Notes: generated by a model from the sequence alone, not told the origin. A DNA stretch of 64,000 bases from Candidatus Latescibacterota bacterium (GCA_965237525.1 CBDEFO010000008.1:143607-207606); one strand, 5' to 3'; counted from the stretch's first letter, positions 36,640 through 64,000 are shown. Numbers and translations are program-made.

Positions 36640-36763
36640 GTTGAATATAGGGACGTGTATCCCGGTTAACGTAAACGAGAGCGCAAATACCGAAATAGCA
36701 AGCAAGATAAAGTTTCGTCTGATCTGGTCCGAATTCAAGGCTACCTATTCTTCGAATAGACAA
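36640..36763 (-). pseudogene. short 5' fragment of the MFS transporter gene
   Basis: ORF 36551-36763 N-terminal residues match the MFS protein. Confidence 0.55.
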
Positions 36764-37154
36764 AAAATGTTGATGTTGAGAATATAATTGGTTATACTAA
36801 AAGGCGACATAGAGTTTAGCAAAACAGGAGTGTAATGTCAAGCTCAAGCTCCTTTTGTCCTTAAAATTTCAGTTTGGGGAATATGAGATTTCTTCCTCCC
36901 GATAGATTCAATCGGGGGCGCTGGCAATGACTAAGGGAGAGGTCATTGTGAGGAGGTCTGCCGCCGAATGATTCTATCGGGGGTTCAATCGTGGACTCAA
37001 GAGAAGGGAGAAGGTGCTCCTGTATACTGGGCGAACACGTGGGGAAAGCATTCATCTGTTGTAGGGGCAGACCCGTGTGTTTGCCCTGAAATGATGACTA
37101 CAATGTGAGGAGGAACCCTTCCTTGATTCCTTGAACCGAAAGGAGCACCAGATA

Positions 37155-38200: not shown

Positions 38201-38499
38201 ACATAGAGTTTAGCCAGGATGTGGCGCTCCTCACTAAAACAGTCTGGGGAATATACTTTATAGATTCAATCGGGGGCAGGGCAATGTATGACGAGGCTGA
38301 GGAGGTCTGCCCCGAATAATTCTATCGGCGGGTTCAATCGGGGACTCAAGAGAAGGGAGAAGCTCCTGTATACTGGGCGAACACCTGGGGAAAGCATTCA
38401 TCTGTTGTAGGGGCAGACCCGTGTGTCTGCCCTGAAATGATGACTACAATGTGAGGAGGAACCCTTCCTTGATTCCTTGAACCGAAAGGAGCACCAGAT

Positions 38500-39855
<1,356 letters not shown>

Positions 39856-49061: not shown

Positions 49062-50589
49062 TAAATACTAAAAGCCTTGTGAAATAGTTATGTCCCAGGC
49101 AGCGTCTGAAGCGCCGATTATGGGTCAAAGAGTAGCATATCGTATCGTTTTGCTGTGGAATAAGCAAAATAGTCTTATCAGAGTTCTGGTCAGCAAGGAA
49201 CAGGAGCTGTTTGAAGAACAGGATGCACTGTCTTTGACAGACAGGGCACACATAGACGCTTTCCCCCTTCTTATGAAAGATACAAGCCTCTTGAGATTCT
49301 GTACTGTTGCAACAAGATTCAACTGTTCATTCAGTGAGGCTGGTCCTCTGTAACGGGCTCGTCCCATACCGTGTTGTTGCCTGGCTTCAGCAAAGATATG
49401 TTCACTGCGTTTACGGAGTCTCCGGGAGAGTTTGTAGTCAGCTGTTAATGAGATAGACCGTGCATGATTTCTGGCTTTCGCCTCTCGCACTTTTCTATCC
49501 CGTTCGGCCTGAATATGTGCTGAATTTGTCTTGTTTTTCCATGTAGGAATCGGTTCAATCTTCTCATCGGCTCGCAGAGGAATATGGGGTATGATTCCCC
49601 GGTCAAGTACATCAGCGATAAAATTACCAGAACCGTAACCGGTATCGGCACTAAGTGTCTGAATGTCTTTGGGCATGGTCTATGTTTCAAGGTCATCTAC
49701 CATCTTAAGGGCACTTTCGGGCTCTGCTGTCCCTGTCGCCTGCGTGCCCTGAGTCTCAAGGATTACTCTGCTTTTTGTGTCGATCAGATCATGGCCCATA
49801 AACGAGAGAAAAGCCCCTTTGCCCTTCGATTTGCTGTATAAGCGCGCGTCGGGGTCTGTAGTCGAACGGTGTGTTTGGTTCGTCCACTTTTCACCATGAA
49901 AGTCTTTATCCTGAGGATGCCCGGACCTACCCTTTGTCTTATCACCTTCAAAACCGATTCCCTTGAGATAATCATCAAGAGAAACAGGGGGTTCTATCGG
50001 CTCAATACTTTTCACTGAAGCATCAGCTTGTATCTGAGTGCCGTCGACACTAAGGTGTTTACCGCTCACAACACCGACATCTATGCAACACTGGACTACC
50101 TGACGCATTATCCGTTCAAACAACCCACTGGATGCCCACTTGTGATTGCGAAGCTTGTTGATCGTGCTCCTATCCGGAACCGCATCATCAAATGTCTGAT
50201 GACAAAACAACCGATATGCCGCATGCATCCCCACTTCCTGACAGAGCCGATTCTCACTCAAATTATACAGATAGCCAATAAGGATCATTCGAACAACTAA
50301 TTCAGGATCAATACCGGGTCTGCCATTGTCAGGGCAATAACAATCTGATACAACGTCTCGTACAAATGAAAAATCAACTGCCTCATCAATCTGACGAAGG
50401 ATATGATCCTCGGGAACTAAATCCTCCATCTGAAAATAGTGAAACATCGGATTTGTCTGTTCCTGCTTTTGTGGGGTCATTGTTTCCTCCATGTATAATA
50501 TTATCAATAACATAATATAATACATCGGAGCTGCTTTATCAATGCTTGTTCTATACTACTTTCTGAATCTAAGGGTTTTTCACAAGGCT
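49062..50589 (-). mobile_element. IS5/IS1182-superfamily insertion sequence, copy 3; flanked by TTAG on both sides
   Basis: Ends AAGCCTTGTGAAATAG (49062) and ...CACAAGGCTT complement (50589); flanking TTAG at both ends fits the IS5-type YTAR 4-bp target duplication. Confidence 0.8.
49125..50480 (-). pseudogene. transposase of IS copy 3 with a single nonsense mutation (TAC to TAG) splitting it into ORFs 49680-50525 and 49125-49676
   Basis: GAAACATAGACC here versus GAAACATACACC in copies 1 and 2 (...DDLETY|TMPKDIQ). Confidence 0.8.
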
Positions 50590-50646
50590 TCTAATACGAT
50601 TGGACTTTGCTGTTGAGAGTTATCGATTTCAATTCATAAGGAAATT

Positions 50647-52944
50647 GTGGGGGTGTACGCTATGAGAAACGGGCACTTTAAAGAGATTCTGATTAGCCTC
50701 TTGGTAGTTATCTCTTGTGTATTCGGGATGAATACTTATGCCGATGCTGCTGTAATCAGTGATGTTAAGGTCTGCAATCTTAAGGGGAGAGGCGCGACGA
50801 TTACGTGGCTTACCGACGTTGCAGCGATAGGGGAAGACAGTGTACGCGTGGTCAACCCTTCCATCGCTCTAAACGCTGTGTTCACTGCGTCCAGAATCGG
50901 CTTCAACACTCACCTTGTGGATATAAGTGGACTAACTCCTAGTACTACCGGCTATTCGTTTGAGGTAATATCAGAAGGAGCTGAAAGCAGTGGTACATTT
51001 GATACTCCAGCTGAGTTTGGTAATGCTCCGCAGACGGCTACTGTGAAGGTAATCAACCAGGACAGCACGGATGCTGAGGGAGTTTTAGTCTCAACAATCG
51101 TGACTGACCTTTCCTTAGCTGGTCCTCCTTTCAATATTAAGTTACCCTCGTTGCCTATATGCGGCATCACTGGTCCAACTGGAATAGCTGTTCTTTCTTT
51201 GGATTTAGCAGTTAAAGAGGCTGGCCTGGGAAATATGGCGTTTAACGCAGCCTCCACAGGTGGATTCGATCTCATACTTGAGGCAAAGGACGGTAAGGGC
51301 AACAGCGCTTCGTCCGGTCCTTTCGTTACGCCTATAAATATAAATGTCGATATAGACACTCTTCGATTGAGCGCAGCCATAGAAGTGGTTATACCTCTCC
51401 CAGAGGGATTGACCCTGATTTCGCCCCCAGTAGAGCCTAAAAATACTTTCACTTCCCATACTTTGCTTCCCTTGATACCGAATTCGAGGGAGATAGACAG
51501 GTGGGACAATGCTGCAGGTAGATTCAGGCCTGTGGTGAGAGATGTGATCACAGGGAATATAATAACGCCGATAGACCAAGCGTTCGATGTAGCAGCGCCT
51601 GAGGGGTTCTTCGTTAAGGTCATATCCTCCTCCGCAGTAACTTTCAGTGGACTACCCATAACGATTCCCCTAAGCCTCACCTTACCTGAGGGGCTAACTC
51701 TCATAGGTGTTCCGTTACCTCTCGGCTTTACCTCTCATACGTTGCTTCCCTTGATAGCGAATTCGAGGGAGATAGACAGATGGGACAATGCTGCAGGTAG
51801 ATTCAGGCCTGTTGTCAGAGATGTGATCACAGGAAATATAATAACGCCGATAGACCAAGCGTTTAATATCAACTTAGGGGAAGGCTACTTTGTTAAGGTA
51901 GTTGCCTCCACTGTGTTTACGCCTCCTACCTCAGCTCCCAAAGCTATTGCTCCAGAGCTGTACGAAGATTTTAGAAGATTTGAAGAAATCAGTACTAATG
52001 TGTTGCCTTCTGAGGTGAAAGTATCTAATGTCACCGATCTGGGCGTCACTGTGTCGTGGCTAGGCGCTGAAAACCATTTGGCGCAGGTGCAGTACAGCAC
52101 CGATCCTGATTTGTCTTATTACGAGTCTGCATATGATGCAATGGAGGCAGAATACCCTGATGATATACACTGGGTGGATATACCGAGACTGTCTCCCAGT
52201 ACGAGGTATTATTTCAGAATCTTGCCGTTGGATCCGAATGACAAACGTGAGGACAAAGTCAGATCGTTTACCACTACTCCTCGCCTGAACTCGATACCAT
52301 ATCCTAACACAATTTACGGTAAGGTGATAGAGGAGGGCGGAAAGGACATAGGCGTTAGGGGAGTGGTCTATGCAAAGGTCATCCACAAGGGAAGAGAATC
52401 ATATCCCGTATCGGCTACAACTTCTGCAAGTGGATATTGGTCTCTTAGTTTGGGTCATTTAAGGGATCGTGAAAGTGGTGATCTGTTCCGCTATTCGAGT
52501 GGAGATGCGATAGTTTTGGAGTATTATGGTCTGTCGGGACGGTATGGAATTCAAAAGGCTGAGGTGGAAACTGATACTCCTCAGGATGTAGGTGAACTTA
52601 TCGTGACAGACACAATAACGTTGAGAGTGCCCGGTTTCGACGGGGTTGATGGAAGTGACATCCCTCAGGCTTACGTTCTACACCAGAACTTCCCCAATCC
52701 GTTCAACCCCGAAACAGAGATCAGCTACGATATCCCTGAAGACGCTCACGTTTCACTCAGGATATACAATGCCTTAGGACAGTTAGTCAGAACGCTTGTG
52801 GATGGGAATCAAAAGACGTCTCACTATGTGGTGAGGTGGGATGGAAGGGACGATAAAGGGACTGATTTGGCCAGTGGAGTTTACTTCTACAGGGTCTTGA
52901 CCGATAACTTTGCGAGCACCAAGAGAATGTTGCTTATGCGATAG
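50647..52944 (+). CDS. secreted surface protein with paralogous N-terminal module, internal duplicated domain, FN3-like and CarboxypepD_reg-like domains and a T9SS C-terminal sorting domain
   Basis: C-terminus LHQNFPNPFNPETEISYDIPEDAHVSLRIYNALGQLVRTLVDG...ASGVYFYRV...KRMLLMR = Por_Secre_tail type. Confidence 0.75.
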   Translation: MGVYAMRNGHFKEILISLLVVISCVFGMNTYADAAVISDVKVCNLKGRGATITWLTDVAAIGEDSVRVVNPSIALNAVFTASRIGFNTHLVDISGLTPSTTGYSFEVISEGAESSGTFDTPAEFGNAPQTATVKVINQDSTDAEGVLVSTIVTDLSLAGPPFNIKLPSLPICGITGPTGIAVLSLDLAVKEAGLGNMAFNAASTGGFDLILEAKDGKGNSASSGPFVTPININVDIDTLRLSAAIEVVIPLPEGLTLISPPVEPKNTFTSHTLLPLIPNSREIDRWDNAAGRFRPVVRDVITGNIITPIDQAFDVAAPEGFFVKVISSSAVTFSGLPITIPLSLTLPEGLTLIGVPLPLGFTSHTLLPLIANSREIDRWDNAAGRFRPVVRDVITGNIITPIDQAFNINLGEGYFVKVVASTVFTPPTSAPKAIAPELYEDFRRFEEISTNVLPSEVKVSNVTDLGVTVSWLGAENHLAQVQYSTDPDLSYYESAYDAMEAEYPDDIHWVDIPRLSPSTRYYFRILPLDPNDKREDKVRSFTTTPRLNSIPYPNTIYGKVIEEGGKDIGVRGVVYAKVIHKGRESYPVSATTSASGYWSLSLGHLRDRESGDLFRYSSGDAIVLEYYGLSGRYGIQKAEVETDTPQDVGELIVTDTITLRVPGFDGVDGSDIPQAYVLHQNFPNPFNPETEISYDIPEDAHVSLRIYNALGQLVRTLVDGNQKTSHYVVRWDGRDDKGTDLASGVYFYRVLTDNFASTKRMLLMR
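51395..51960. repeat. internal tandem duplication (two about 285-bp units, largely identical at DNA level) inside the 50647 gene
   Basis: LPEGLTLI...HTLLPLI.NSREIDRWDNAAGRFRPVVRDVITGNIITPIDQAF... occurs twice. Confidence 0.7.
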
Positions 52945-53020
52945 AAGACCATTAGGATATTTGTCTGTTCTCACAGTGATGGATTTCATCTTAAATGTTC
53001 TTGAGAAGGGAGGCTAAAAA

Positions 53021-56000
53021 GATGTCTAAGAATTTTAAACTGTTAGCAGCACTCACGGGCATACTTCTGGTAGCTTATGTAAGTGCTAATGCCGCTGTAA
53101 TTAGCGATGTTAAGGTGTGCAATCTTACGGGAAGAGGAGCTGATATTACTTGGCTTACCGACGTGGCGGCTACAGGAGAGGACAGTGTACGCGTAACGAA
53201 TACTTCCGTTTCCTTGGATACTGTGTTCACTGCCTCCAGAATCGGTTTCAACACTCACTCTGTGGGTATAAGCGGCCTAACTCCCAGTACCGCAGACTAT
53301 GTGTTCCAGATAATATCTGAGGGAGCTACCACAAGCGCTGATACCTTTGCTACTCCTGCCGAATTTGGCAACGCTCCACAGACTGCCACTGTGAAGGTAA
53401 TTAACAAGGACGGTACGGATGCTGAGGGCGCTCTGGTCAGCGTGATTATTAATGACCTTTCTCTCTTCAATCTTAACCCTGCACTTTTTCCTAAGTTACC
53501 CTCTTTCCCTATATGTGGCATCACTAGTTCAAGTGGTGTAGCTGTTCTTTCTTTGGATTTAGCAGTCAAAGAGGCCGGTCTGGGCAATATGGCGTTTAAC
53601 GCGTCCTCTTCCGGAGGGTTTGACGTCACACTCGAGGCAAAGGACGGCAAGGGCAATAGTGCTTTGTCCGGTACTTTCGTCACGCCAATAGATATAAATG
53701 TTAACATAACTACCCTCCAATTGGAACCACCTACAATCCCCATAATCAATGTCTCTCCTGCCTCACTCAATTTCGGCCTTGTGGAGGTCACTAACTCCAA
53801 AAGGGATACTGTGACCTTCCAGAACATAGGCGAGGATACGCTGGATATTAGTGGACTTCTCGACGTTGCAGCTCCGTTTAGAATTATATCGCCAGGAACA
53901 CTACCAGATCTATCCAGTCCTATTTTAGTTCCGCCTAATTCCACGATAGAAGTTGTTATAGAATGTAGTCCTACCACTACTGGTTCTTTCCTGGGTACTC
54001 TGGTCGTTATAAGCAACGATTCTACGGGGAATGCTATCTTAGACATACCTTTAAGTGGAACGGGTCTTGCATCCGATATCGAAGTCTCTCCGACGAACGT
54101 AGATTACGGTGTTGTGCTAGTAGGCAACAGTTTGGGTAGTACGATAAAAATTAAGAACTTAGGCAATGCGAATTTAGTCTTAGGGGCTTTGTCCCTTACA
54201 GGCACTAATGCAGGTGAGTTTTCGATTCAAGTTCCTCCAAGTTCGGTCGTTGGTCAAGGGGATAGTACTGAGGCTACTATCAGGTTCTCACCTACGTCGG
54301 GCGGCACGAAGAATGCCACCTTAGTCATTCCGAACAACGATCCTGACGCCGCTGACGGTACTGTGTTTGTTGCCTTAATAGGTGTGGGCGGAGAACCGAA
54401 TATAACGGTAGTAAATACGGTGGATTTTGGCAGTGTAAGCACTATCGGAGCTCCTAAGGATATTGACTTGGAGATCCTAAGTGACGGCGGTCTACAGTTG
54501 GCGATCAGTGCTGTGGTGCTTACACGCCCAGGTGCTGCGGCTTATACGTTGCTGGATACTCTGGATGGGGTTACCCTCCCTGCACTAACAGGAAAGGATA
54601 CACTGGGGATAAGATTTGCCCCGACTAGTGTGGGTCCCTTCACAGCAGATTTGACTATCTTCAGCGATGATCCTGATACACCGGCGAAGACAGTTACCTT
54701 ACTTGGTACTGGAATTGAGCCTGATATAGATGCGGCTCCGTTTGATTTCGGACCTGTGGAGGTAGACAGCTTTAAAACAGATACCTTGACGGTAAATAAC
54801 GTCGGGACAGATACCCTGAATGTCTCCAGCATGACTTTGGTGTCAGGGACGTCTGTGACGTTTGATATGTTCTTCTCTAGTCCAGTAGCCATCGCTCCGG
54901 GAGAATCGTTCAAGGTAGGAGTTCAATTTACTCCCCAGTCCGTGGGAACTTTTACAGATACTGTGGTTGTCGTAAGCAACGACCCTGACGGTGCTTTCAA
55001 GGTTCCTCTGATCGGAGAGGGCGTTGGTGTACCTCCTCCCTCTGCTCCTCAGTTTGGTGAGCCATTTACAGTAACCTTAACAGGTGTAGACAGTAATACT
55101 ACTATCTTAGCCAATCCAGGCGAGGAGTTTTTTATTGAGTCACGGGTAAGCGAGGTAACCCAGGGCATATTCGGCTTCTCCACTAAATTTGGGTTTGACC
55201 CGAACGTTGTAGAGTTGGTTACAGTTTTTGGTCAACCGGTTATAAGCCTCACACCGAACGTATTGCCCCTTAACCCCACACCTTCTGGCGGCCTGGTATT
55301 TGGCACAACTGATACTCTTAGTATGGGTGCCGCCGCATCCATAGGTATTGGGGCTACGCCGGTCAGCGGTACAATTCTCACGATTAAGTTCAGGGTCAAG
55401 AGCACTGCTAATCCTGGTGATTCTAGTCCTCTCAACTTAGTTAGTGCTGTAGTGGGTGTAGATACTACGCTAGATTTTGGAACCTTTACTGGCATAGATA
55501 TTCCTGCCGAGACTCTTATAAGCGCGGTGTTGCAGGTTTCTAGGAACATCACCGGTCAATCCGTTGTGGATGACGTAAAACTCGCGCCGACTCGTACAGG
55601 CGCCACTGTGACTTACGGTGGAGCGACTCTCGGTATAGCGAGTGTGACAGGCCCGGTTTCTGTCCTTAGGGTCGTCCTTGAATCTGACGTAGCAGGTGAG
55701 GGTGTTGACACCGTTAGAGTGAACATAAACAGGGTCGACGTGGGTGTTGGAATAGATAATCCAAGCACATATATAGCTTCTCCTGCTACTGATGCTACCC
55801 TAAGCGGCGTTGCTATATATAGAGACGATGGTGATAATGTCTTTGAGAGGGAAGTGGATACTCCTGTTAACGCAGCCAGTATCGCTTTTACTGATACGAT
55901 AGCAAGCGTTAGTGCTGATAGTATTTTGACAATCACCTTAGATTTTCCTGATGGCGTCCTTCCCATAAATCCCAATCCGTTGACGTTCTTTATCGTCGTC

Positions 56001-59000
56001 AGAGGTGGAGCTGGGATAAGTAACGGTGATCAGTTCACATTCAGCACGAACCTTTCGGATTGGGTATTTAGCGGTTTTTCGAGAGGAAGTTTCACTGCCA
56101 CTTCTGCTGTCATAACCGGTGATGTAAGCGCTCCTACTATATCTGCGGGCAATGCAGTAACGGTCGACGATGACAGCGATGGACTTTTAGACGGTCTGAA
56201 GATAACATGGAGTGAGAGCATCGCCGATATGAGCTTTGCCAACTTTGCCAGCGCGACGGCTAATTTTGACGTGACAGCGGGTACTACACTCATAGATGCT
56301 GGATTAGCCGCCGATCCTGACGGGGACGATGGGACGTTCACAGCTGCTAATAGGCTGCCCAAAATAGATCCAAACGGTCCTCCTCGCACTTCGGATACCA
56401 TAAACAACAACATCACCTTCATCACCTTCATCACCTTCCAGGAAGACCCGGGATCACCTGCGGATAAGCTCCTCAGTGCACTTAATACGGAGGCAGCACC
56501 CGCTTTAAGTATGGCAGGGGCAACAGTAACCGACCTTGCGGGCAACCCTCCTGGGGCTATTGTCGGATTTGCTTCGATAGACGCGGCTCGTCCTGTGGTC
56601 TACCAGAGCCTCTATCTGGACGCAGACGTTGACGGCAAGATAGATGAGGTGCAGGTCCAATTTTCCGAGGACATTGACGCTGCCACCTTTGCAGACAACG
56701 ACGGATGGAGTGTCGCGGGGTTTGCGTTCTCGAGCAATCCCGTTCTCATAGGGGCTGCTGCTTCTGTAGATCCCCCGGTTTCACCAACCGGAGGCGCTTT
56801 CGATGTCGCCAGGCTATTACTTACTGAGAAGGCTGACTTTAACACGAGCATAGACCCTGCAGTGGATCAGGTGACTTATAGCGCTGCTGCAGCCGATGTG
56901 GCAGATCTAGCGGGAGTTGCTCTTAACAACGTGTTTGTAGGAACCTCTAAAGAGGTTGATAAGGCCAGTCCGATTTTGATCGATGCGACCACTAAAGATG
57001 TTGTTTCTACCGAACCCAGAGGTCAGATAGACCGGTACACAATTAGATTCACCGAAGCTGTGAATCTAGCGGCAGGAGATTTTGTTATTCTGGATGACTT
57101 CAATATTGCCGGGTTAGGTTCAGGCGCCGGTACCAGCACAGTCGATCTTACCATCACCGAGGCAGGCGTAGTAGATACTGGAATCAAGCCAGGGCTCGCC
57201 GTAAATATTGCAAATGTTGAAGACAACGCGTTAAATAGGCTGGGACAAGTTGATGCAAACAGTCTGGTCGCTCCTTCGGCCGATGCACTCCCCGGTACTG
57301 GCGAAATCCTCATTCCTGACTCAAAGCGCTTCGACGGTGCTCCGCCCTTGATAAGGAAGAGGGGTGCAGCAGCCGTCGGTGGGGATGCTGTGGTTACGGG
57401 AGACAGCAACAGGGATGGCAGGCTCGATCAGATTGTGGTGGAGTTTACTGAGATCATGCCTGTTGGTGGCGATTACGTTACTGGGGCCACCATTGAAGGA
57501 CTCGTTATTTCCGGCGCCTCGCGGACGGCAGCCGATCAGGTGACCTATACGTTGACAGTAGCTGCAGGCGATCCGCCTAACACAGACGCTGTGCCCGACT
57601 ATCTCTATAGCACGGCTACGGGAGCCATATTAGATCCCGCCGGGCTGGAGTTGGTGGATATCGGGAGCGCCGATATTACGGAGGTGGATGGAGCTGCTCC
57701 GGTCCTCGTGGGCGCTGTCACAGATGACGCTGACGGAGACGGAAAAATAGATAAATACGTTATCACTGTAAGTGAGCCTATATCGATAGCTGGTGTTGCG
57801 GACTCGCTAAGAGCAGGCCTGGGAGTTGCGGGTCACCTCGATACACTCGCCACCCTGGATGCAACTAAGGAGATTATCACCTTACTCTTCGTTGAAACAG
57901 CCGTGACAACGCTGGGAGATTTCGATACTGGAGTGACCCCTGAAGTTACTTATACCCGAGCTACAGTGCAGGATGTGGATGGCGAGATCAAGGATCTTTC
58001 AGGCCCCGGCGGTACGGCTAGTATTCCTATGGAGGATATCACTGCTGACAATGCCGTTCTGACAGAGACCGACGGCGCCAGACCCGTTACTGTTCTCGCT
58101 GCTGATGATACCTCAAGCACAGGGGACAGAAACAGCGATGGCTTTATAGATCAGTTCACGGTGACCTTCAGCGAGCCTGTGACGGCGGACAGCGGTAACA
58201 TCGGCATAACCGTTGATGCCACTGCTTCGGGCAACACCGTAACCCTCAGTGAAGTCTTGAGCGGCGGCGGCACCAACGTTGTGGTCTTCGGCGGAACTTC
58301 CGACGGACCCGCAACATCCGGAGATCCTGATACGGAGGACACTCCGCTCTTTGACTATATCGAGACCGGATCTATTCGTGATATATCTGCTGCTGAAAAT
58401 ACACTTCGAGCTGCTGCCGATCAGATAACGATAGATGAGGCCAAACCCGTTATTGTCTTTGCGACGGGAAGGGTGCAGGATACAGAACTGAAGCTAAAGT
58501 TCTCCGAGGCTGTTCGCGGCACTGGAGCCGGGGGCGATGTGGCTGTACCTGACTTATCCTATCTGGATGTTAGCTTAAGCAGAGCCGGAAGCATCGTCGC
58601 TGTGGAAGATGAAGCAGCAGCTATCAATGGGGACGATGAACTCATAACAGTCAGTGTGGATAGTAGTTTTATCATTCAAGATGTGGTACAGGACTCCATT
58701 TCGTTCTCTCCGTCAGTTGCGGATTCCGCCTTGAGCCTTGTTACTGATGCCGCGTCTGTGCCTAATCAAGCGCTGGCCATCCTCGTCACGATTTCTGTTC
58801 CTAAACTTTTTGTGACATTAATTAATCCCACTTCTGGAACGCAATTGGGAGGAAAGTCTGTGGCGATATTAGGAGGCAATTTCCAGAGTGGTGCAACCGT
58901 CACGTTCGGCGACACGTCAGCCACAAATGTAGTTGTAGCCTCCCCTGATACCGTTACTGCTGCGACCCCTGCTCATCCTGTCGGTAATGTGGACGTGATA

Positions 59001-59942
59001 GTCACAAATCCCGACGGTCAGGCAGATACACTCTTTAACGGATTTACTTTTGTATTGTTAGGGGATGTCAGTGGCAACGGAGAGATAACGGCATTTGATG
59101 CTGCTTTGGTGCTTAAATCTGTAGTCGGTCTCTTTGTAATCTCTGACACTGTGGCAGCAGACGTAAGTGGAGACGGCACCATAAGTGCCTTTGATGCCTC
59201 TTTGATACTCAGGTTCGTTGTTGGGAAAATAACTCAATTTCCCGCCCAGACAGGAGGCATCTCTAAGGCTGTACTTGGCGAGAGGATTATAAGTTTAGGT
59301 AATATAAAAGCTTTACAGGATCGACGTTTTGCCGTTCCTATTCTCATAGACGAAACGGACGGTGTCTTATCAGGTCAACTTGAACTATCTTTAGACCCGA
59401 CAAAGCTTAAAGCCGTAGATGCTACGGTATCCGACCTGACCTCTGACTATCTTTTGGCTCATAATGCTCAAAATGGCAGAATAAGGCTATCCTTTGCCGG
59501 TGTAGAATCGGTTAACGGCAGCGGTAGTATCGCCGAGATCATATTTGAGCCAATAGGTTCTGAAATTGACGTTATTGGTGAGGCTGGTCTGATCTCCGCC
59601 CAATTGAACGAAGGTCTTTTCAGTGTGATTATTTCCCAACATGGAGGCATCTCCGATCTTCCTGACAGCTATTCATTGCATCAGAACTTCCCCAATCCGT
59701 TCAACCCTGAGACAGTGATCCATTACTACCTTCCTCTTCAAAGCCACGTGGACATATCTGTCTATAATATAACCGGACAGAAGGTTGTGACACTGGTGGA
59801 CAATCAGATGGACACAGGCAGTCACTCTGCAGTGTGGAATGGAGAAGATGACAACGGAGAAAGTCTTGCCAGCGGAGTGTACCTCTATCGGATGGAGACG
59901 GATGGATTTGTCAAGACAAGGAAGCTGGTCTTGATGAAATGA
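53021..59942 (+). CDS. giant (about 2300 aa) secreted multi-domain surface protein: paralogous N-terminal module, many Ig-like/beta-sandwich domains, IPT/TIG, dockerin (2 repeats), cohesin-like domain, T9SS C-terminal sorting domain
   Basis: ORF 52995-59942. ATG at 53021 after GGGAGG. Dockerin LGDVSGNGEITAFDAALVLK...ADVSGDGTISAFDASLILRFVVG, then a cohesin-like segment, then LHQNFPNPFNPETVIHYYLP...KTRKLVLMK. Confidence 0.75.
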
Positions 59943-60084
59943 GCTTCTTTATTTATTTATAACCGTCTTTAGCCAGCAGATGAGGAGGTGACACAAATTC
60001 ACCCGGGTTTGGGTACTACAACGCAGCAATATAGGTAATTGCACACTCATTTCAGTTAATGATTCTCAATGAAAGGATAGCCTG

Positions 60085-63060
60085 ATGAAGAAGATATTCC
60101 CGATATTCATGGTGCTGGGATTTGTGCTTTTTGCCGCTTCGATGAGTTCTGCTCACCTCGGCGCCGACCGTTTCGCTGTCCAGGTGCCCAATGGGACGGA
60201 TATGGCGGGGATCTACCAGAACTTTGTAGCGGATGGTGACGACAGCGAGTGGGAGATGATTCCCCCTACGTTCTGGTGGACACACGAGGATGCGTTTCAG
60301 CTCTGGGAAGGGTCAGAGTTAATAGACGCCTCCGACCTAGCCTTGCGTGTTATTTTAGGATGGAATGAGGCTACCAACCATGTAATCTGGTTTGAGGATA
60401 GATATGACGATGTCTATGTCGGTTGGGTAGCTGACTTCATTCAGGAGACTGTTGAGCTTGGCATCGATGGGGACCACAGCGGAGGACGGTACATGCAAAT
60501 GAACCTGGACGACCTGGATTCGAACAGGTTCGACGCCGCTTTTGCACAGAATTGGCGCTATTTTGTGATCCGAGAGAATCCGGTCTGGCTGTGGGGAGCA
60601 GCTACGTGGGTAAACGTGGCTCCTTATTCCGACTTCGGCTGGAGCTTCGACGGCAACCTGGGTGACCCGGGCAACCTGATTGCTGAGATGGCCGTGACTC
60701 CGTTTGACGATCTGGATCCTGCAGGTATACAGACCAGTATAGTACACGACCTTACAGCGGGCGAAGTCATCGGAGTAGGCATTAACGTTCAGGACGTCGA
60801 CATGATTGGGAGCATCAACGATCCCAACCAACAAGGTGGCGTCCAACAGACTAACGGTGGCTACTATACCAGCGGAGGCGAGCAGGTCGGCAAATTTGCG
60901 GATACCTTCCTTGACGTCACTCTACTTCCTTTTGATCCGTCAATATGGGTACGCGTGGACGGTCTTCCTCCAATGGGTACAATCTCAGTCAGTCTCCCGC
61001 ACACATCTATCCCTATGGGCGGTACGCTTTCAGCCCCTATCCTTATGGAAGGGGATGTGACAGGGCGTGGAATCATATCAGTGCAGATGAATATCAGCTA
61101 CGATTCAAATGTAATAGAGGCAATAGATCTAATATCGCAAGGGACACTGAGCCAAGGTTGGACGATTGCTGACACAGTCGCGACTGGAATTGGAACATCT
61201 ATAGACACTGTAAAGGTTGCGATGGCGGCTCCGGGGCCCGACACACTATCAGGGTCTGGAGATCTTGTCCTTATCAATTTTGTAACATCAGATTTGGCAG
61301 CTATTGGAGATTCCACAGCGTTAGTCTTTGAAGATTTCTTCTTCAATGAGCGCGATCCTGTGGCAGCTACACGTAATGGATCTGTGCAAATTTTTGGGCC
61401 AACTGTAGCCGGTGTATCCGTTTCCAGAGCTCTCGTTCCAGTGGGCCATCCTGTCGTGATCTTCGCTGACGTTACCAATGCAGATTCCGTGGAAGTCAGG
61501 GTGTGGGATCCGAACGATATGACCTTTGCTCCTGTGCATTTGACGCTCTTCGATGACGGGGCACACAACGACGGGCTTGCCGGAGATAGACGCTGGGCAA
61601 GCGACCCCTGGCTTACTCCCGCTGATCACCCCCGGTTTTTCTATGTGGACATCTTGGCAAGGAGCAACCTGGGAGCAGAGAGCCGTATAGATAGCGTCGC
61701 CTCGTTCGAGACAGCAATCTTCGTGACCCTGGGAGCGGGTGAAGAAGTCGCAGGTCCCGGAGGACAGGCTTTAGTTCCTATCTTTGCTCGTAGTCTGAAT
61801 GGCGCAGACGTGGTATCGGGCGAGGTAACGCTCCGCTTCGATCCAAATCTTGTGCAGTTTATACGAGCATTTCCGGGACCAGGACAGAGCTTTCCCAGTG
61901 GTTTTGTCTTTAACTCTGCTGAACCTGGAAGAGCCGTAATAGCCTTCGCCTCGATAGCTCCACTTTTTGATACTCCAGAAGGTATCCTGGCATTTGCGGT
62001 ATTTCAGGTATCCCCCGGTGCATTGTTAGGCTCAAGGATAGATATATTTGTGCCAGAAGATCAATCAAATGTAAATGAAGGGCTTCCCCCTGTGACTACG
62101 TTCGACGGCGGCATCACAGTAGAGCTTGTAGGCGATATCAGCAGAAACGGTCAGATTAAGTCGTTCGATGCTGCTTTAGCGCTGATGCATTCGGTCAGGT
62201 TCAGGGACATACTAGTCGAGTTTTTCGGCGGCGACGAAAGCTTATTCCTGGCGATCTCGGATGTGACGCGCAACGGGAGCGTGACAGCTATGGACGCCGT
62301 CCGGATCCTACAATTTGTAGTTGAGTTGATCCCAGGACTACCGTTACTCGGATCCGATGGCCTTGCGAAGGTCACAGATGCCGAACCTCGCACAGTCAGC
62401 ATGTCAGATGCCTTGGAAATATTCGAAGGGGGCTTAAAGGTGTCCCTTTCCATAGACGATATGTCAGGAGTTCTTGGAGCGGATATATCCATAAGCTACG
62501 ACTCATCGAGGTTGAAGGCAGTGAGTGTGTCTCCCTCAGATATGCTGTCGTCCTTTATGTTCCAGAGCAACATTAAGGGAGACGAGGTTAAGATAGCCTT
62601 TGCTTCTATTGATCCAGTGGAAAGCGGTGGAGAGATAGCCTACATCGAGTTTGAGATCATCCGCGGTGTGAGCGACTACTCTGAGGTTGAACTGTTAAGG
62701 ATTAAGGACGTCCAGCTTAACGAGGGGCTAATTCTTGCCATAACCGGGGAGACAGAGCTGTCCTTAGAATCCTCTATTCCCGAGACTTACTCCCTCTCCC
62801 AGAACTATCCCAATCCCTTCAACCCTGAGACAGTGATCCATTACGACCTTCCCGTTCGAAGCCACGTTAATATATCTGTCTACAATATGATGGGACAGAA
62901 GGTTGCAATATTGGTTGACAGAGAGGTGGACGCAGGTAGTCACTCTGTCGTATGGGATGGCAAAGATTACAATGGAGAAAGCCCCGCCAGCGGGATCTAT
63001 GTGGTTCGGATGGCGGCGGATGGGTTTGTGAACACGAGGAAACTTGTCTTGATGAAATAA
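60085..63060 (+). CDS. secreted scaffold-like protein: CBM9/DOMON-like N-terminal domain, cohesin, dockerin, second cohesin, T9SS C-terminal sorting domain
   Basis: Signal peptide. Cohesin-like segments around 61000-61330 and 62400-62700. Dockerin VGDISRNGQIKSFDAALALM...ISDVTRNGSVTAMDAVRILQFVV. C-terminus LSQNYPNPFNPETVIHYDLP...NTRKLVLMK. Confidence 0.7.
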   Translation: MKKIFPIFMVLGFVLFAASMSSAHLGADRFAVQVPNGTDMAGIYQNFVADGDDSEWEMIPPTFWWTHEDAFQLWEGSELIDASDLALRVILGWNEATNHVIWFEDRYDDVYVGWVADFIQETVELGIDGDHSGGRYMQMNLDDLDSNRFDAAFAQNWRYFVIRENPVWLWGAATWVNVAPYSDFGWSFDGNLGDPGNLIAEMAVTPFDDLDPAGIQTSIVHDLTAGEVIGVGINVQDVDMIGSINDPNQQGGVQQTNGGYYTSGGEQVGKFADTFLDVTLLPFDPSIWVRVDGLPPMGTISVSLPHTSIPMGGTLSAPILMEGDVTGRGIISVQMNISYDSNVIEAIDLISQGTLSQGWTIADTVATGIGTSIDTVKVAMAAPGPDTLSGSGDLVLINFVTSDLAAIGDSTALVFEDFFFNERDPVAATRNGSVQIFGPTVAGVSVSRALVPVGHPVVIFADVTNADSVEVRVWDPNDMTFAPVHLTLFDDGAHNDGLAGDRRWASDPWLTPADHPRFFYVDILARSNLGAESRIDSVASFETAIFVTLGAGEEVAGPGGQALVPIFARSLNGADVVSGEVTLRFDPNLVQFIRAFPGPGQSFPSGFVFNSAEPGRAVIAFASIAPLFDTPEGILAFAVFQVSPGALLGSRIDIFVPEDQSNVNEGLPPVTTFDGGITVELVGDISRNGQIKSFDAALALMHSVRFRDILVEFFGGDESLFLAISDVTRNGSVTAMDAVRILQFVVELIPGLPLLGSDGLAKVTDAEPRTVSMSDALEIFEGGLKVSLSIDDMSGVLGADISISYDSSRLKAVSVSPSDMLSSFMFQSNIKGDEVKIAFASIDPVESGGEIAYIEFEIIRGVSDYSEVELLRIKDVQLNEGLILAITGETELSLESSIPETYSLSQNYPNPFNPETVIHYDLPVRSHVNISVYNMMGQKVAILVDREVDAGSHSVVWDGKDYNGESPASGIYVVRMAADGFVNTRKLVLMK

Positions 63061-63199
63061 GCTTCTTTATTTATTTACAACCGTCTTTAGCCCGCAGATG
63101 AGGAGGTGACACAAATTCACCCAGGTTTGGGTACTACAACGCAGCAATATAGGTAATTGCGCATGCATTTCCGTTAATCACTCTCAATGAAAGGATAGC
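63061..63199. repeat. duplicated upstream region (about 140 bp), about 93% identical to 59943-60084
   Basis: GCTTCTTTATTTATTT.CAACCGTCTTTAGCC.GCAGATGAGGAGGTGACACAAATTCACCC.GGTTTGGGTACTACAACGCAGCAATATAGGTAATTGC... in both; each precedes a paralogous MKKIF... gene. Confidence 0.8.
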
Positions 63200-63554
63200 A
63201 TGATGAAGAAGATATTTTCGGTATTCATGGCTCTGGGATTTGTCGTTTTTGGCGTTTCGATGGGATCCGCTCACCTGAGGTTAGATCAGACCTTTGTCGC
63301 TCCCATGCTTCCCATTGATGGGACTCCGGGGATGCCACCTAATTTCCCTGTGAGGGTTGTACTAGACGGTGATGGGTCCGAGTGGGATATGCTTCCTCGA
63401 CAGTACTATTTAACGCACGATGATCTGAAAGAGGTCATCAAAGGGGGGTTTCCTGAGCCGAACCCCTCCAGCCTCGCCGTGAAGGTAGTCTGGGGATGGA
63501 GCCCGGTGACCAACTTGCTCTATGTGATAGAGGAGAGATTTGACGACCGCTCTA
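63200..63554 (+). pseudogene. 5' part of a paralog of the 60085 cohesin/dockerin protein, truncated by insertion of IS copy 4
   Basis: ORF 63200-63577: MMKKIFSVFMALGFVVFGVSMGSAHL...DGDGSEWDM... parallels the 60085 N-terminus; last 8 codons (SKSLVKNP*) are encoded by the IS left end. Confidence 0.75.
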
Positions 63555-64000
63555 AAAGCCTTGTGAAAAACCCTTAGATTCAGAAAGTAGTATAAAACAA
63601 GCATTGATAAAGCAGCTCCGATGTATTATATTATGTTATTGATAATATTATACATGGAGGAAACAATGACCCCACAAAAGCAGGAACAGACAAATCCGAT
63701 GTTTCATTATTTTCAGATGGAGGATTTAGTTCCCGAGGATCATATCCTTCGTCAGATTGATGAGGCAGTTGATTTTTCATTTGTACGAGACGTTGTATCA
63801 GATTGTTATTGCCCTGACAATGGCAGACCCGGTATTGATCCTGAATTAGTTGTTCGAATGATCCTTATTGGCTATCTGTATAATTTGAGTGAGAATCGGC
63901 TCTGTCAGGAAGTGGGGATGCATGCGGCATATCGGTTGTTTTGTCATCAGACATTTGATGATGCGGTTCCGGATAGGAGCACGATCAACAAGCTTCGCAA
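63555..64000 (+). mobile_element. IS5/IS1182-superfamily insertion sequence, copy 4 (5' part; runs off the window)
   Basis: Identical to 12197-12650 of copy 2 except rare substitutions; preceded by CTAA. Confidence 0.85.
63666..64000 (+). CDS. DDE transposase, N-terminal part (partial at window edge)
   Basis: MTPQKQEQTNPMFHYFQMEDLVPEDHILRQIDEAVDFSFV... identical to copy 2. Confidence 0.85.
   Translation, partial: MTPQKQEQTNPMFHYFQMEDLVPEDHILRQIDEAVDFSFVRDVVSDCYCPDNGRPGIDPELVVRMILIGYLYNLSENRLCQEVGMHAAYRLFCHQTFDDAVPDRSTINKLR

What the first reader, a model, noticed from the sequence alone, without database searches (positions are those of the whole stretch)
50647..63060. T9SS cargo proteins carrying cohesin and dockerin modules: a possible secreted cohesin-dockerin surface assembly
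Three consecutive giant genes end in the Por-type C-terminal sorting domain (LHQNFPNPFNPET...V.LVD...SG.Y.YR...K.VLMK). Two of them (53021 and 60085) contain both dockerin repeats (D.SG/RNG.I.AFDAAL.L) and cohesin-like beta-sandwich modules, plus CBM9/DOMON-like, Ig-like and IPT domains. Cohesin-dockerin pairing is the glue of cellulosomes, typical of Firmicutes. Here it is combined with T9SS export and covalent surface attachment, suggesting a self-assembling surface scaffold in a different lineage. Three of the proteins share a 230-aa paralogous N-terminal module.
Basis: partly seen in the sequence, partly recalled or inferred. Interest (0 to 1): 0.65.

Follow-up and report, generated by a model that had tools for sequence, protein, structure and literature searches.

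The report
T9SS surface proteins with cohesin-dockerin tails
Three neighbouring genes of an uncultivated bacterium encode large, enzyme-free surface proteins that carry the export tag of the type IX secretion system, and two of them also carry the cohesin and dockerin "glue" modules known from cellulosomes; this combination is real and common in metagenomes, has been reported before in related candidate phyla, and has never been tested experimentally.

Summary
All three genes (50647-52944, 52995-59942, 60085-63060) have a signal peptide and a T9SS type A C-terminal domain (TIGR04183, above cut-off). p2 carries one dockerin and two cohesins; p3 carries one dockerin and three cohesins. Pfam, a family-specific HMM and an AlphaFold model (pLDDT 90; best PDB match the non-cellulosomal Archaeoglobus fulgidus cohesin 2XDH) support this. 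No catalytic domain or CBM was detected. The "CBM9/DOMON-like" claim could not be supported.

Both p2 and p3 end in the same cassette: dockerin, cohesin, CTD. An exhaustive profile search shows the cassette is a recurrent tail. Of the best 150 cluster representatives, 116 end this way. Spacing is conserved and the N-terminal heads are diverse and mostly non-enzymatic. AlphaFold models the dockerin-cohesin pair as one compact unit (pTM 0.85).

The best reading is a set of T9SS-exported, outer-membrane-anchored adhesin or coat proteins that link to each other through cohesin-dockerin contacts. It is not an enzyme cellulosome. The binding partners and the cis or trans mode are inferred.

The concept is not new: CTD-anchored cohesin scaffoldins were described in Cloacimonadota in 2021. 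T9SS core genes are absent from the window, though a close relative has sprA beside a cassette gene. The cluster lies between IS1182/IS5-type copies, one of which truncates a fourth paralogue.

The parts
50647..52944 (+). p1. 765-aa ORF, probably starting at ATG 50662 (760 aa). T9SS cargo without cohesin or dockerin. Layout: signal peptide (cleavage ...YADA|AVIS), shared N-terminal module, two tandem ~93-aa repeats, an fn3/PAP_N-like domain, CTD.
50749..51375 (+). p1 copy of the ~210-aa N-terminal module shared with p2 and ORF 19271-22294.
   Evidence: blastp gives 75-76% identity. Only a weak Pur_ac_phosph_N/fn3-like signal is seen.
52678..52944 (+). p1 T9SS type A C-terminal sorting domain (aa 678-765).
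   Evidence: TIGR04183 39.3 bits against cut-off 23. FlgD_ig 44.5 bits.
52995..59942 (+). p2. 2315-aa ORF, probably starting at ATG 53022 (2306 aa). Layout: signal peptide (...SANA|AVIS), shared N-terminal module, 4 x choice-of-anchor D Ig-like domains, cohesin, ~1100 aa of unassigned repeats with DxDG..D...FSE-type motifs, TIG, dockerin, cohesin, CTD.
53739..55019 (+). p2 four choice-of-anchor D / ASH / HYDIN-type Ig-like domains (aa 249-675).
   Evidence: NF012200 142 bits in 4 stretches. PF22073 and PF22544 match.
55110..55448 (+). p2 cohesin 1 (aa 706-818), internal, with no adjacent dockerin.
   Evidence: PF00963 37.6 bits against GA 24.1. Family HMM E 2e-7.
58809..59048 (+). p2 TIG/IPT domain (aa 1939-2018).
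   Evidence: PF01833 40.4 bits. 71% identical to a TIG domain of ORF 19271.
59058..59249 (+). p2 dockerin (aa 2022-2085). It has two near-identical segments, DVSGNGEITAFDAALVL and DVSGDGTISAFDASLIL.
   Evidence: PF00404 35.6 bits against GA 22.9. PDB dockerin hits down to E 8.5e-9. AF2 shows the expected helices at pLDDT >94.
59253..59681 (+). p2 cohesin 2 ('CohB', aa 2087-2229), 13 residues after the dockerin and directly before the CTD.
   Evidence: PF00963 24.2 bits. Family HMM E 3.5e-51. AF2 gives a nine-strand beta-sandwich. All of the 50 best Foldseek PDB matches listed are cohesin or cohesin-like modules, the best being 2XDH at E 8e-9.
59676..59942 (+). p2 T9SS type A CTD (aa 2228-2315).
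   Evidence: TIGR04183 45.3 bits.
60085..63060 (+). p3, 991 aa. Layout: signal peptide (...SSA|HLG), unassigned 270-aa N-terminal domain, cohesin, ~100-aa module (weak choice-of-anchor X), cohesin, dockerin, cohesin, CTD. It is identical to database protein P0012, which occurs on a 2.03-Mb and a 115.7-kb public contig.
60154..60969 (+). p3 N-terminal 'head' domain (aa 24-295), fold unknown. Paralogues are p4, P0002 and P0008.
   Evidence: No Pfam or PDB match. AF2 failed. Homologues listed.
60979..61374 (+). p3 cohesin 1 ('CohA' type, aa 299-430). It is 61-68% identical to the cohesin that precedes the cassette in relatives.
   Evidence: PF00963 31.5 bits. Family HMM E 5e-24. Relatives.
61726..62100 (+). 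p3 cohesin 2 (aa 548-672), divergent.
   Evidence: PF00963 17.3 bits, below GA. Family HMM 41 bits, E 3e-14.
62128..62343 (+). p3 dockerin (aa 682-753), with an enlarged (~21 aa) spacer between its two segments.
   Evidence: PF00404 22.9 bits, equal to GA, when scanned alone. Family HMM E 9e-21. Alignment.
62356..62796 (+). p3 cohesin 3 ('CohB', aa 758-904), directly after the dockerin and before the CTD.
   Evidence: PF00963 31.3 bits. Family HMM E 7e-42. Best PDB sequence match is 2XDH.
62794..63060 (+). p3 T9SS type A CTD (aa 904-991).
   Evidence: TIGR04183 35.1 bits.
63200..63577 (+). p4, a fourth gene of the series. It is a paralogue of the p3 N-terminus (43.6% identity over 117 aligned residues) and is cut off after about 117 codons by an IS insertion starting at 63553.
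59943..60084 (+). Intergenic region upstream of p3. It is 93-96% identical to the region upstream of p4 (63061-63202). It forms part of a 477-nt block, 84% identical, that spans CTD end, spacer and signal peptide.
49072..50594 (-). IS1182/IS5-type insertion sequence, 50-70 bp upstream of p1. Its transposase is split into two ORFs.
63553..64000 (+). Another copy of the same IS (>=99.3% identical), in inverted orientation. It interrupts p4 and runs off the window.
19271..22294 (+). Distant paralogue (1007 aa). It shares the first ~350 aa with p2 (71% identity) and a TIG domain. It also has LTD, Big_2 and choice-of-anchor Z repeats. No CTD, cohesin or Pfam dockerin was detected.

Best explanation
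p1, p2, p3 and the IS-truncated p4 are Sec-exported cargo proteins of a type IX secretion system. The host is an uncultivated FCB-group bacterium; the nearest named relatives of the family are Latescibacterota. The proteins contain no catalytic or recognised carbohydrate-binding module. They are strings of Ig-like and beta-sandwich modules, that is, adhesin-like or coat-like surface proteins.

p2 and p3 end in a conserved cassette: dockerin, cohesin, type A CTD.

Inferred mechanism:
1. The folded proteins cross the outer membrane through the SprA translocon.
2. The CTD is removed and the new C-terminus is attached to anionic LPS by the PorU sortase. This follows general T9SS knowledge and is not shown here.
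3. This places the dockerin-cohesin pair next to the membrane.
4. That pair forms one compact Ca2+-dependent unit. It is either a cis clasp within one chain or a reciprocal swap between neighbours, and it serves as a pedestal.
5. The three extra cohesins (p2 Coh1, p3 Coh1 and Coh2) are free sockets for dockerins of other cassette or dockerin-only proteins encoded elsewhere in the genome.

The result would be a non-covalent protein network on the cell surface. It uses cellulosome-type glue but is not an enzyme cellulosome.

Shown: the domain identities, the cohesin fold, cassette conservation and gene family expansion.
Inferred: export, anchoring, binding partners, and the cis or trans mode.
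For: Type A CTD above the curated cut-off in all three proteins, with signal peptides visible in the sequence.

Cohesin and dockerin profile matches.

AF2 model of p2 Doc-CohB: pLDDT 90.2 and pTM 0.85 over 217 aa. That pTM is higher than I would expect, by my own rough estimate, if the 64-aa dockerin were placed freely relative to the 143-aa cohesin. All of the 50 best PDB fold matches listed are cohesin or cohesin-like modules.

Exhaustive profile search with the cassette: 177 representatives at E<=1e-30. Of the best 150, 116 end in Doc-Coh-CTD and 36 of those are Coh-Doc-Coh-CTD. In 87 of 116 the Doc-to-Coh spacing lies within +/-5 residues of the model spacing (97 within -6 to +1), and the CTD match reaches the last residue in 104 of 116.

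Heads of 59 cassette proteins are diverse and mostly non-catalytic: He_PIG, beta-helix, FG-GAP, LTD, TIG, PKD, cadherin. Single cases carry GH5, Peptidase_S8 or FGE-sulfatase.

Several more family members lie on the same 2.03-Mb contig and in relatives, often clustered.

A related genome has sprA about 4 kb from a cassette gene.

Precedents: self-recognising cohesin and dockerin in one polypeptide leading to multimerisation (R. bromii Amy4, PMC4611034), and CTD-anchored cohesin scaffoldins (PMC8542988).
Against: - There are no binding data of any kind.
- I could not inspect model coordinates, so I do not know whether the dockerin sits on the canonical 8-3-6-5 face of the cohesin.
- Covariation between the dockerin and cohesin halves was inconclusive. 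Neff was about 74. Face columns against other strands gave p 0.02-0.03, but face against all non-face columns gave p 0.3-0.4.
- No T9SS core gene lies in the window. None could be tied to this genome.
- No dockerin-only partner is encoded in the window.
- The dockerin Ca2+ loops are non-canonical: Ser at position 3 and Thr/Ser at position 9.
- The cluster sits among IS copies, and one paralogue is already destroyed.
Confidence: 0.6

Rival explanations
1. Classical cellulosome-like enzyme scaffold. p2 and p3 would be CTD-anchored scaffoldins whose free cohesins recruit dockerin-bearing glycoside hydrolases or peptidases encoded elsewhere, for polymer degradation, as proposed for Ca. Stygibacter.
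For: - Three cohesins have no adjacent dockerin.
- There is a published model in Cloacimonadota and an attribution to Latescibacteria.
- Rare cassette relatives carry GH5, Peptidase_S8 or GH43_C2 heads.
- Hits to the cassette profile include proteins in which only a dockerin was detected alongside other domains.
Against: - No dockerin-bearing enzyme lies in the window. The only glycoside hydrolase, GH113 at 14971-15831, contains no dockerin match: only p2 and p3 hit the family dockerin HMM among all window ORFs.
- No Pfam or NCBIfam CBM hit in p1-p3.
- The scaffold proteins carry dockerins themselves.
- The family's heads are overwhelmingly non-catalytic.
Confidence: 0.2
2. Inert pedestal. The dockerin-cohesin pair is a permanently closed intramolecular didomain that serves only as a rigid spacer or folding unit in front of the CTD. 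The other cohesin-like modules would be plain beta-sandwich spacers, with no intermolecular assembly.
For: - High pTM for the didomain.
- Strictly conserved order and short spacing.
- The cassette is attached to unrelated heads, like a generic tail.
- The columns I assigned to the presumed binding-face strands (3, 5, 6, 8 of the model) are more conserved than the other strands, with mean entropy 1.43 against 1.70.
Against: - Extra cohesins without a cis dockerin are conserved. The CohA type is 61-68% identical between genomes, and Coh-Doc-Coh-CTD recurs in 36 of 150 representatives.
- Multi-cohesin proteins lie next to cassette proteins in other MAGs (L025).
- Proteins in which only a dockerin was detected exist among the hits.
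Confidence: 0.15
3. A decaying or mobile accessory region with no current function. The genes would be relics carried between IS copies.
For: - The cluster lies between two inverted IS copies that are >=99.3% identical.
- p4 is truncated by one of them.
- A homologue in a related genome is also hit by this type of IS.
Against: - p1-p3 are intact ORFs of 765, 2315 and 991 codons with intact signal peptides and CTDs.
- p3 is identical on two independent public contigs.
- The domain family is large and conserved.
Confidence: 0.05

Closest known systems
Cellulosome-like system proposed for Ca. Stygibacter (Cloacimonadota), Williams et al. 2021, PMC8542988
   Same: It is an FCB-group candidate phylum. 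Signal-peptide proteins carry cohesin and dockerin modules. A T9SS-type conserved C-terminal domain is proposed to anchor the cohesin-bearing protein to the cell. The evidence is in silico only.
   Different: In Stygibacter the roles are divided in the classical way. A 3755-aa scaffoldin carries tandem cohesins plus CBM2/CBM3, and separate enzymes (GH18, GH57, S8, C25) carry C-terminal dockerins. Here the dockerin and cohesin are fused side by side directly before the CTD of the same protein. No CBM or enzyme is present and the heads are adhesin-like.
Ruminococcus bromii Amy4 (amylosome), PMC4611034
   Same: One secreted polypeptide carries both a cohesin and a dockerin. The cohesin was shown experimentally to bind its own dockerin, which predicts multimerisation. 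This is the best functional analogy for the cassette.
   Different: R. bromii is a Gram-positive Firmicute. Amy4 has a GH13 catalytic module, and anchoring goes through the sortase-linked Sca2. There is no T9SS and no conserved Doc-Coh adjacency.
Non-cellulosomal cohesin of Archaeoglobus fulgidus (PDB 2XDH) and archaeal or ANME dockerin/cohesin proteins (PMC9012536)
   Same: 2XDH is the best sequence and fold match in the PDB for the cassette cohesins. These are cohesin/dockerin proteins in organisms that do not degrade cellulose, and they are proposed to build surface or cell-cell assemblies.
   Different: They are archaeal, with an S-layer context and no outer membrane or T9SS. Sequence identity is only about 22%.
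Clostridial adaptor and anchoring scaffoldins (e.g. CipA, ScaA/ScaB, OlpA-C)
   Same: These proteins combine cohesins with a dockerin and a cell-anchoring module, and so build hierarchical assemblies. The cohesin and dockerin folds are the same.
   Different: Anchoring is by SLH modules or sortase on a Gram-positive wall. The partners are dozens of dockerin-bearing CAZymes. Dockerin and cohesin are not adjacent as a fixed didomain.
Generic T9SS type A cargo adhesins of Bacteroidota (e.g. SprB/RemA-type or gingipain-type cargo)
   Same: Signal peptide plus modular Ig-like body plus C-terminal TIGR04183-type CTD.
   Different: To my knowledge (from memory, not checked here), the characterised cargo proteins are not described as carrying cohesin/dockerin pairs.

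Membership tests
T9SS type A cargo protein | C-terminal sorting domain matching TIGR04183 / PF18962 at the extreme C-terminus | tested here: met
   TIGR04183 scores 39.3, 45.3 and 35.1 bits against cut-off 23. Each match ends within 3-4 residues of the stop codon. PF18962 scores 26-27 bits, at its cut-off of 27.
T9SS type A cargo protein | N-terminal Sec signal peptide | tested here: met
   Judged by inspection only; no predictor was available. Each has a basic n-region, a hydrophobic core and an AxA-type site: YADA|A, SANA|A and SSA|H. Gene starts are supported.
T9SS type A cargo protein | The genome encodes the T9SS core (SprA, PorK/L/M/N, PorU, PorV) | tested here: inconclusive
   None lies in the 64-kb window. 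A related genome has sprA beside a cassette gene. No SprA hit could be assigned to the window's own contig among the 120 listed. Walking along the contig failed.
T9SS type A cargo protein | CTD cleavage and attachment to anionic LPS | not testable with these tools
   This needs proteomics or biochemistry.
Cohesin (PF00963) | Profile match above the gathering score | tested here: met
   Four of five modules reach GA 24.1, at 37.6, 24.2, 31.5 and 31.3 bits. The fifth scores 17.3 bits in Pfam but 41 bits (E 3e-14) with a family HMM built from metagenomic cohesins.
Cohesin (PF00963) | Nine-stranded beta-sandwich (jelly-roll) fold | tested here: met
   Tested for p2 CohB only. AF2 shows nine strands at pLDDT >94. 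All of the 50 best Foldseek PDB matches listed are cohesin or cohesin-like modules, with TM-score up to 0.68 normalised to the target.
Cohesin (PF00963) | Binds a dockerin | not testable with these tools
   The only evidence is indirect: pTM 0.85 for the Doc-Coh didomain. Covariation was inconclusive.
Dockerin type I (PF00404) | Profile match above the gathering score | tested here: met
   p2 scores 35.6 bits against GA 22.9. p3 scores 22.9 bits, equal to GA, when scanned alone and 15.8 bits in the whole protein. The family HMM gives E 9e-21.
Dockerin type I (PF00404) | Duplicated ~22-residue segment, each a Ca2+-binding loop (D1, N/D3, D/N5, 9, D12) followed by a helix | tested here: inconclusive
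   The duplication and helices are present. The loop reads D-V-S-G-N/D-G-x-I-T/S-x-F-D. Positions 1, 5 and 12 are canonical, while position 3 is Ser and position 9 is Thr/Ser. Ca2+ binding is plausible but untested.
Cellulosome (sensu stricto) | Dockerin-bearing glycoside hydrolases that dock onto the scaffoldin | tested here: not met
   Within the window, dockerins occur only on p2 and p3 themselves. Only p2 and p3 hit the family dockerin HMM among all window ORFs, so GH113 at 14971-15831 does not. The rest of the genome was not searchable.
Cellulosome (sensu stricto) | Substrate-targeting CBM on the scaffoldin | tested here: not met
   No CBM family matched in p1-p3 at E<=0.1. The CBM9-like claim for the p3 N-terminus is unsupported.
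Cellulosome (sensu stricto) | Anchoring by SLH modules or sortase on a Gram-positive wall | tested here: not met
   A T9SS CTD takes that place. There are no SLH or LPXTG hits.
Doc-Coh-CTD cassette family (defined here) | Dockerin, then a cohesin at conserved short spacing, then a type A CTD ending the protein | tested here: met
   p2 and p3 both fit. So do 116 of the best 150 representatives in the exhaustive search. Examples occur in Latescibacteria-labelled and Bacteroidetes-labelled MAGs.

The most novel reading that the evidence does not exclude
The dockerin-cohesin-CTD tail is a distinct, widespread and so far uncharacterised T9SS surface-assembly module of FCB-group candidate phyla. After export it would either clasp in cis as a Ca2+-dependent pedestal or swap in trans. 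In the trans case, unrelated cargo heads (adhesins, beta-helices, occasional enzymes) would self-organise into a non-covalent coat or lattice on the outer membrane. That would be an outer-membrane analogue of cellulosome and S-layer anchoring, one that evolved around T9SS rather than around sortase or SLH.
Probability: 0.3. Interest if true: 0.6.

Novelty: new variant of a known kind. Interest (0 to 1): 0.4.

Why it matters
If the cassette really mediates assembly, T9SS cargo in several uncultivated phyla would not be displayed as isolated molecules. It would be displayed as a cohesin-dockerin-linked network. That changes how surface architecture, particle attachment and possibly polymer degradation should be modelled for abundant sediment and water-column lineages such as Latescibacterota and its relatives.

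It would also provide a compact (~210 aa), naturally outer-membrane-compatible cohesin-dockerin pair for surface-display engineering in Gram-negative hosts.

If the pair is only an inert pedestal, the finding is an ordinary family of modular T9SS adhesins.

Tried and rejected
1. p3 N-terminal domain as CBM9/DOMON. Pfam at E<=1 gave nothing. A profile search against PDB gave nothing. AF2 with a 4-sequence alignment gave pLDDT 34, which is unusable, so no fold search was run. The claim is unsupported rather than disproved.

2. Finding T9SS core genes for this genome.
- A Pfam scan of 30 other long ORFs (>=150 aa), covering most of the window, found none.
- The SprA of a related genome, used as a query, returned 593 hits. 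None of the 120 listed lay on the window's 2.03-Mb contig.
- The two nearest non-identical SprA contigs could not be linked to the window.
- Look-ups of other family members on the same contig were not on record.

3. Covariation (MI-APC) between the dockerin and cohesin halves in 98 cassettes, Neff about 74. The top signals were alignment artefacts in the gappy linker. Enrichment of the strands I assigned to the presumed binding face (numbered from the model's DSSP) was weak and depended on the control used. I treat it as inconclusive.

4. Promoter and terminator scans did not differ from shuffled sequence.

6. The C-terminus of ORF 19271 looks dockerin-like by eye (GDVS...DGEIGTEDLDFVVDVVL ... 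DGADGIVNLFDILFVVDRL). Pfam found no dockerin even at E<=10, and the family HMM gave E 1.8. I rejected it as evidence.

7. Organism identity. There is no rRNA or tRNA in the window. The genome-collection scan hit mostly CTDs in Marinimicrobia, Zixibacteria and KSB1 MAGs. Named relatives of the cassette and of the relative's SprA are Latescibacteria/Latescibacterota. The phylum assignment remains tentative.

8. Farag et al. 2017 and Peer et al. 2009 could not be read. Youssef et al. 2015 does not mention dockerins.

9. A self-blastp to delimit internal repeats in p1-p3 returned nothing, so the repeat units of the ~1100-aa unassigned region of p2 were not defined. The p1 duplication was found at DNA level instead.


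Full report
WHAT IS THERE

The region holds three consecutive + strand ORFs at exactly the stated coordinates: p1 50647-52944 (765 codons), p2 52995-59942 (2315) and p3 60085-63060 (991). Gene calls on an identical public contig, together with alignment of the upstream regions, place the real starts of p1 and p2 at ATG 50662 and ATG 53022. Each protein begins with a typical Sec signal peptide. I read this from the sequence; no predictor was available.

All three proteins end in a T9SS type A sorting domain. TIGR04183 scores are 39.3, 45.3 and 35.1 bits against a curated cut-off of 23. PF18962 and FlgD_ig match the same stretch.

COHESIN AND DOCKERIN MODULES

Pfam finds a dockerin in p2 (aa 2022-2073, 35.6 bits, GA 22.9). 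It finds cohesins in p3 in the whole-protein scan. Scanning sub-segments resolves five cohesins:
- p2 aa ~706-818: 37.6 bits.
- p2 aa ~2087-2229: 24.2 bits, just at GA.
- p3 aa ~299-430: 31.5 bits.
- p3 aa ~548-672: 17.3 bits, below GA.
- p3 aa ~758-904: 31.3 bits.

The p3 dockerin (aa 682-753) scores 22.9 bits, equal to GA, when scanned alone. It has an enlarged spacer between its two segments.

I built HMMs from the cohesin and dockerin modules of metagenomic relatives. These raise the weak cases to E 3e-14 (p3 Coh2), E 3.5e-51 (p2 CohB) and E 9e-21 (p3 Doc). They find no further cohesin, dockerin or CTD in any other ORF of the window.

An AlphaFold2 model of p2 aa 2016-2232 (dockerin plus the following cohesin; 31-sequence alignment) has mean pLDDT 90.2. 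It shows three helices followed by nine strands. All of the 50 best Foldseek matches listed in the PDB are cohesin or cohesin-like modules. The best is the non-cellulosomal cohesin of Archaeoglobus fulgidus, 2XDH, at E 8e-9. 2XDH is also the best cohesin match by sequence for both p2 and p3.

The dockerin segments read DVSGNGEITAFDAALVL and DVSGDGTISAFDASLIL. Positions 1, 5 and 12 of the Ca2+ loop are canonical, while position 3 is Ser and position 9 is Thr/Ser. The two halves are nearly identical at the positions that make contacts in known dockerins. That would allow a dual binding mode; this is my inference.

OTHER MODULES

p2 also has four choice-of-anchor D / ASH Ig-like domains and a TIG domain. 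About 1100 residues of p2 are unassigned repeats. p1 has an fn3/PAP_N-like domain and an internal duplication: a 137-nt direct repeat at 93% identity with 279-nt spacing.

The ~230-aa N-terminal module is shared by p1 and p2 at 76% identity. The third carrier is ORF 19271-22294, 30 kb upstream, which lacks a CTD, cohesin and dockerin.

No catalytic domain and no CBM was found in p1-p3.

Its AlphaFold model was useless, at pLDDT 34. That label is unsupported.

THE CASSETTE

p2 and p3 share their last ~320 residues at 43% identity: dockerin, cohesin, CTD.

Word-indexed searches found close relatives (61-79% identity in these modules) in related genomes. In those, the same tail, often preceded by a further cohesin, is attached to quite different heads: FG-GAP/VCBS repeats, TolB-like propellers, TIG and Y_Y_Y. 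One hit is named by NCBI as a T9SS type A sorting domain protein of a Latescibacteria MAG.

An exhaustive HMMER search of 1.84 billion cluster representatives with the Doc-Coh profile gave 14,615 hits at E<=1e-3, 3,237 at E<=1e-10 and 177 at E<=1e-30. I annotated the best 150 with my own Doc, Coh and CTD HMMs.
- 116 end in Doc-Coh-CTD.
- 36 of those are Coh-Doc-Coh-CTD.
- In 87 of the 116, the dockerin-to-cohesin spacing lies within +/-5 residues of the model spacing (97 within -6 to +1).
- The CTD match reaches the last residue in 104 of the 116.

Pfam on 59 of these proteins shows diverse heads that are mostly non-catalytic: He_PIG, beta-helix, FG-GAP, LTD, Big_9, TIG, PKD, cadherin, NHL and one CBM9_1. 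Single cases carry GH5, Peptidase_S8 or FGE-sulfatase.

The cassette also occurs in a MAG labelled Bacteroidetes. There, a 1904-aa beta-helix protein with the cassette is followed by a three-cohesin protein. So the locus belongs to a large and conserved architecture family. It is not a one-off.

HOW IT PROBABLY WORKS

The didomain model has pTM 0.85 over 217 residues, about 20 of which are disordered tail. I would expect a lower value, by my own rough estimate, if the 64-aa dockerin were placed freely relative to the 143-aa cohesin. AlphaFold is therefore confident about their mutual arrangement. The fixed order and the short, conserved spacing point the same way. Together they suggest that the dockerin and the following cohesin act as one unit, either as a cis clasp or as a reciprocal swap between neighbours.

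I could not inspect coordinates, so the interface is unknown. A covariation analysis was underpowered and inconclusive. The columns I assigned to the strands of the canonical binding face (numbered from the model's DSSP) are somewhat more conserved than the other strands, with entropy 1.43 against 1.70. That is compatible with a conserved partner but does not prove one.

The three remaining cohesins have no cis dockerin. They are the obvious sockets for dockerins of other family members. Several more members lie on the same 2.03-Mb contig, and relatives cluster them.

From established T9SS biology I infer, but did not test, the following. The proteins are exported through SprA. The CTD is removed. 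The proteins are then linked to anionic LPS. This would put the cassette at the membrane-proximal end.

My best explanation, at confidence 0.6, is a set of T9SS-anchored adhesin or coat proteins networked by cohesin-dockerin contacts. The rivals are:
- A true enzyme-recruiting, cellulosome-like scaffold (0.2).
- An inert pedestal with no trans binding (0.15).
- A decaying accessory island (0.05).

T9SS IN THE GENOME

No T9SS core gene lies in the 64-kb window. The neighbours are metabolic genes, TatC, TPR proteins and transposases.

p3 is identical to a database protein found on a 2.03-Mb contig and on a 115.7-kb contig. I could not scan those contigs.

In a related 4.54-Mb contig, a Coh-Doc-Coh-CTD protein lies about 4 kb from a SprA_N gene. 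The nearest named relatives of that SprA are from Latescibacteria/Latescibacterota, at about 47% identity.

For the lineage the result is positive.

COMPARISON WITH WHAT IS KNOWN

The combination of cohesins and dockerins with a T9SS CTD anchor in an FCB candidate phylum was already proposed in silico for Ca. Stygibacter (Cloacimonadota). That system has a 3755-aa scaffoldin with tandem cohesins, CBM2/3 and a CTD, plus enzymes with C-terminal dockerins (PMC8542988).

Cellulosome-affiliated enzymes are attributed to Latescibacteria (PMC7081726 citing Farag et al. 2017).

Non-cellulosomal cohesins and dockerins are known across the three domains of life. They have been proposed to build surface assemblies in ANME archaea (PMC9012536).

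A cohesin that binds the dockerin of its own polypeptide, predicting multimerisation, was shown for R. bromii Amy4 (PMC4611034).

What I did not find in the searchable literature is any description of the fused Doc-Coh-CTD tail as a recurrent unit on non-enzymatic cargo. The library is incomplete, so this is absence of evidence only.

The locus fails the defining tests of a cellulosome in the strict sense. The window contains no dockerin-bearing enzymes, p1-p3 contain no CBM, and there is no SLH or sortase anchor. It meets the tests for T9SS type A cargo, cohesin and dockerin.

VERDICT

It is right about the parts and plausible about assembly, and it overstates how unusual the lineage and the combination are.

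I class the locus as a new variant of a known kind. Interest is moderate (0.4). The interesting element is the widespread, structurally coupled Doc-Coh-CTD cassette, which invites a direct biochemical test.

CONTEXT NOTED

The cluster lies between two inverted copies of a 1.52-kb IS1182/IS5-type element. The window holds four copies, all >=99.3% identical. One of them truncates a fourth gene, p4, a paralogue of p3. The same kind of IS has hit the p3 homologue in a related genome. The junctions p2/p3 and p3/p4 share a 477-nt block at 84% identity, and the spacer within it is 93-96% identical. The flanking coding regions are far more diverged.

Noticed in passing
window 1-991, 12193-13715, 49072-50594, 63553-64000: There are four copies, >=99.3% identical, of a ~1.52-kb IS1182/IS5-type insertion sequence. 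One has an intact 466-aa transposase (12262-13662). One has a split transposase (49125-49676 and 49680-50525). Two are cut by the window ends. Two of the copies bracket the cohesin-dockerin cluster in inverted orientation, which resembles a composite transposon. I did not check target-site duplications.
   Followed up: partly
window 63200-63577: A fourth gene of the series (p4) is a paralogue of the p3 N-terminus (43.6% identity over 117 aligned residues). An IS insertion at 63553 truncates it after about 117 codons. In related locus L046, the p3 homologue P0002 is likewise N-terminally replaced by read-through from an IS end (the 'LNLRVFHKAS' sequence).
   Followed up: yes
window 59682-60158 vs 62800-63276: A 477-nt block covers the CTD end, the 142-nt spacer and the start of the next signal peptide. 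It is 84% identical between the p2/p3 and p3/p4 junctions, and the spacer is 93-96% identical. The flanking coding regions are only ~43% identical at protein level. This suggests gene conversion or a conserved regulatory spacer. The spacer was not found in any other locus I fetched.
   Followed up: partly
window 22025-22291 (C-terminus of ORF 19271-22294): The last ~80 residues look like a degenerate two-segment dockerin by eye (GDVS..DGEIGTEDLDFVVDVVL ... DGADGIVNLFDILFVVDRL). Pfam finds nothing at E<=10 and the family dockerin HMM gives E 1.8. This protein has a signal-peptide-like start and the module shared with p1 and p2, but no CTD. How it would leave the periplasm is unclear.
   Followed up: partly
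window 28258-29523, 32490-32993, 34405-35979, 36000-39300: The window holds an array of genes made of 126-nt (42-aa) TPR_12/TPR_10 repeats. The 3-kb stretch 36-39 kb contains many degenerate copies of the same unit but no ORF longer than 130 codons. It looks like a decayed TPR gene.
   Followed up: partly
L045 1-13750 (related 4.54-Mb contig): A SprA_N gene, two LptF/LptG genes and a Coh-Doc-Coh-CTD protein (P0005) lie within 14 kb of each other. This links the T9SS translocon, LPS export and a cassette cargo in one neighbourhood.
   Followed up: partly
L025 2382-11013 (MAG labelled Bacteroidetes bacterium Cfx3-02): A 1904-aa beta-helix protein ending in Doc-Coh-CTD is directly followed by a 948-aa protein with three cohesins, Big_2 and PKD_6, in which no CTD was detected. 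This pairing is more scaffoldin-like than the window's cluster.
   Followed up: partly
window 51448-51584 and 51727-51863: p1 contains a recent internal duplication: 137 nt at 93% identity with 279-nt spacing. It gives two ~93-aa modules of unknown fold.
   Followed up: no
window 14971-15831 (- strand): A GH113 family glycoside hydrolase (PF22612, E 3e-51) is the only carbohydrate-active enzyme I saw in the window. No dockerin or CTD was detected in it.
   Followed up: no
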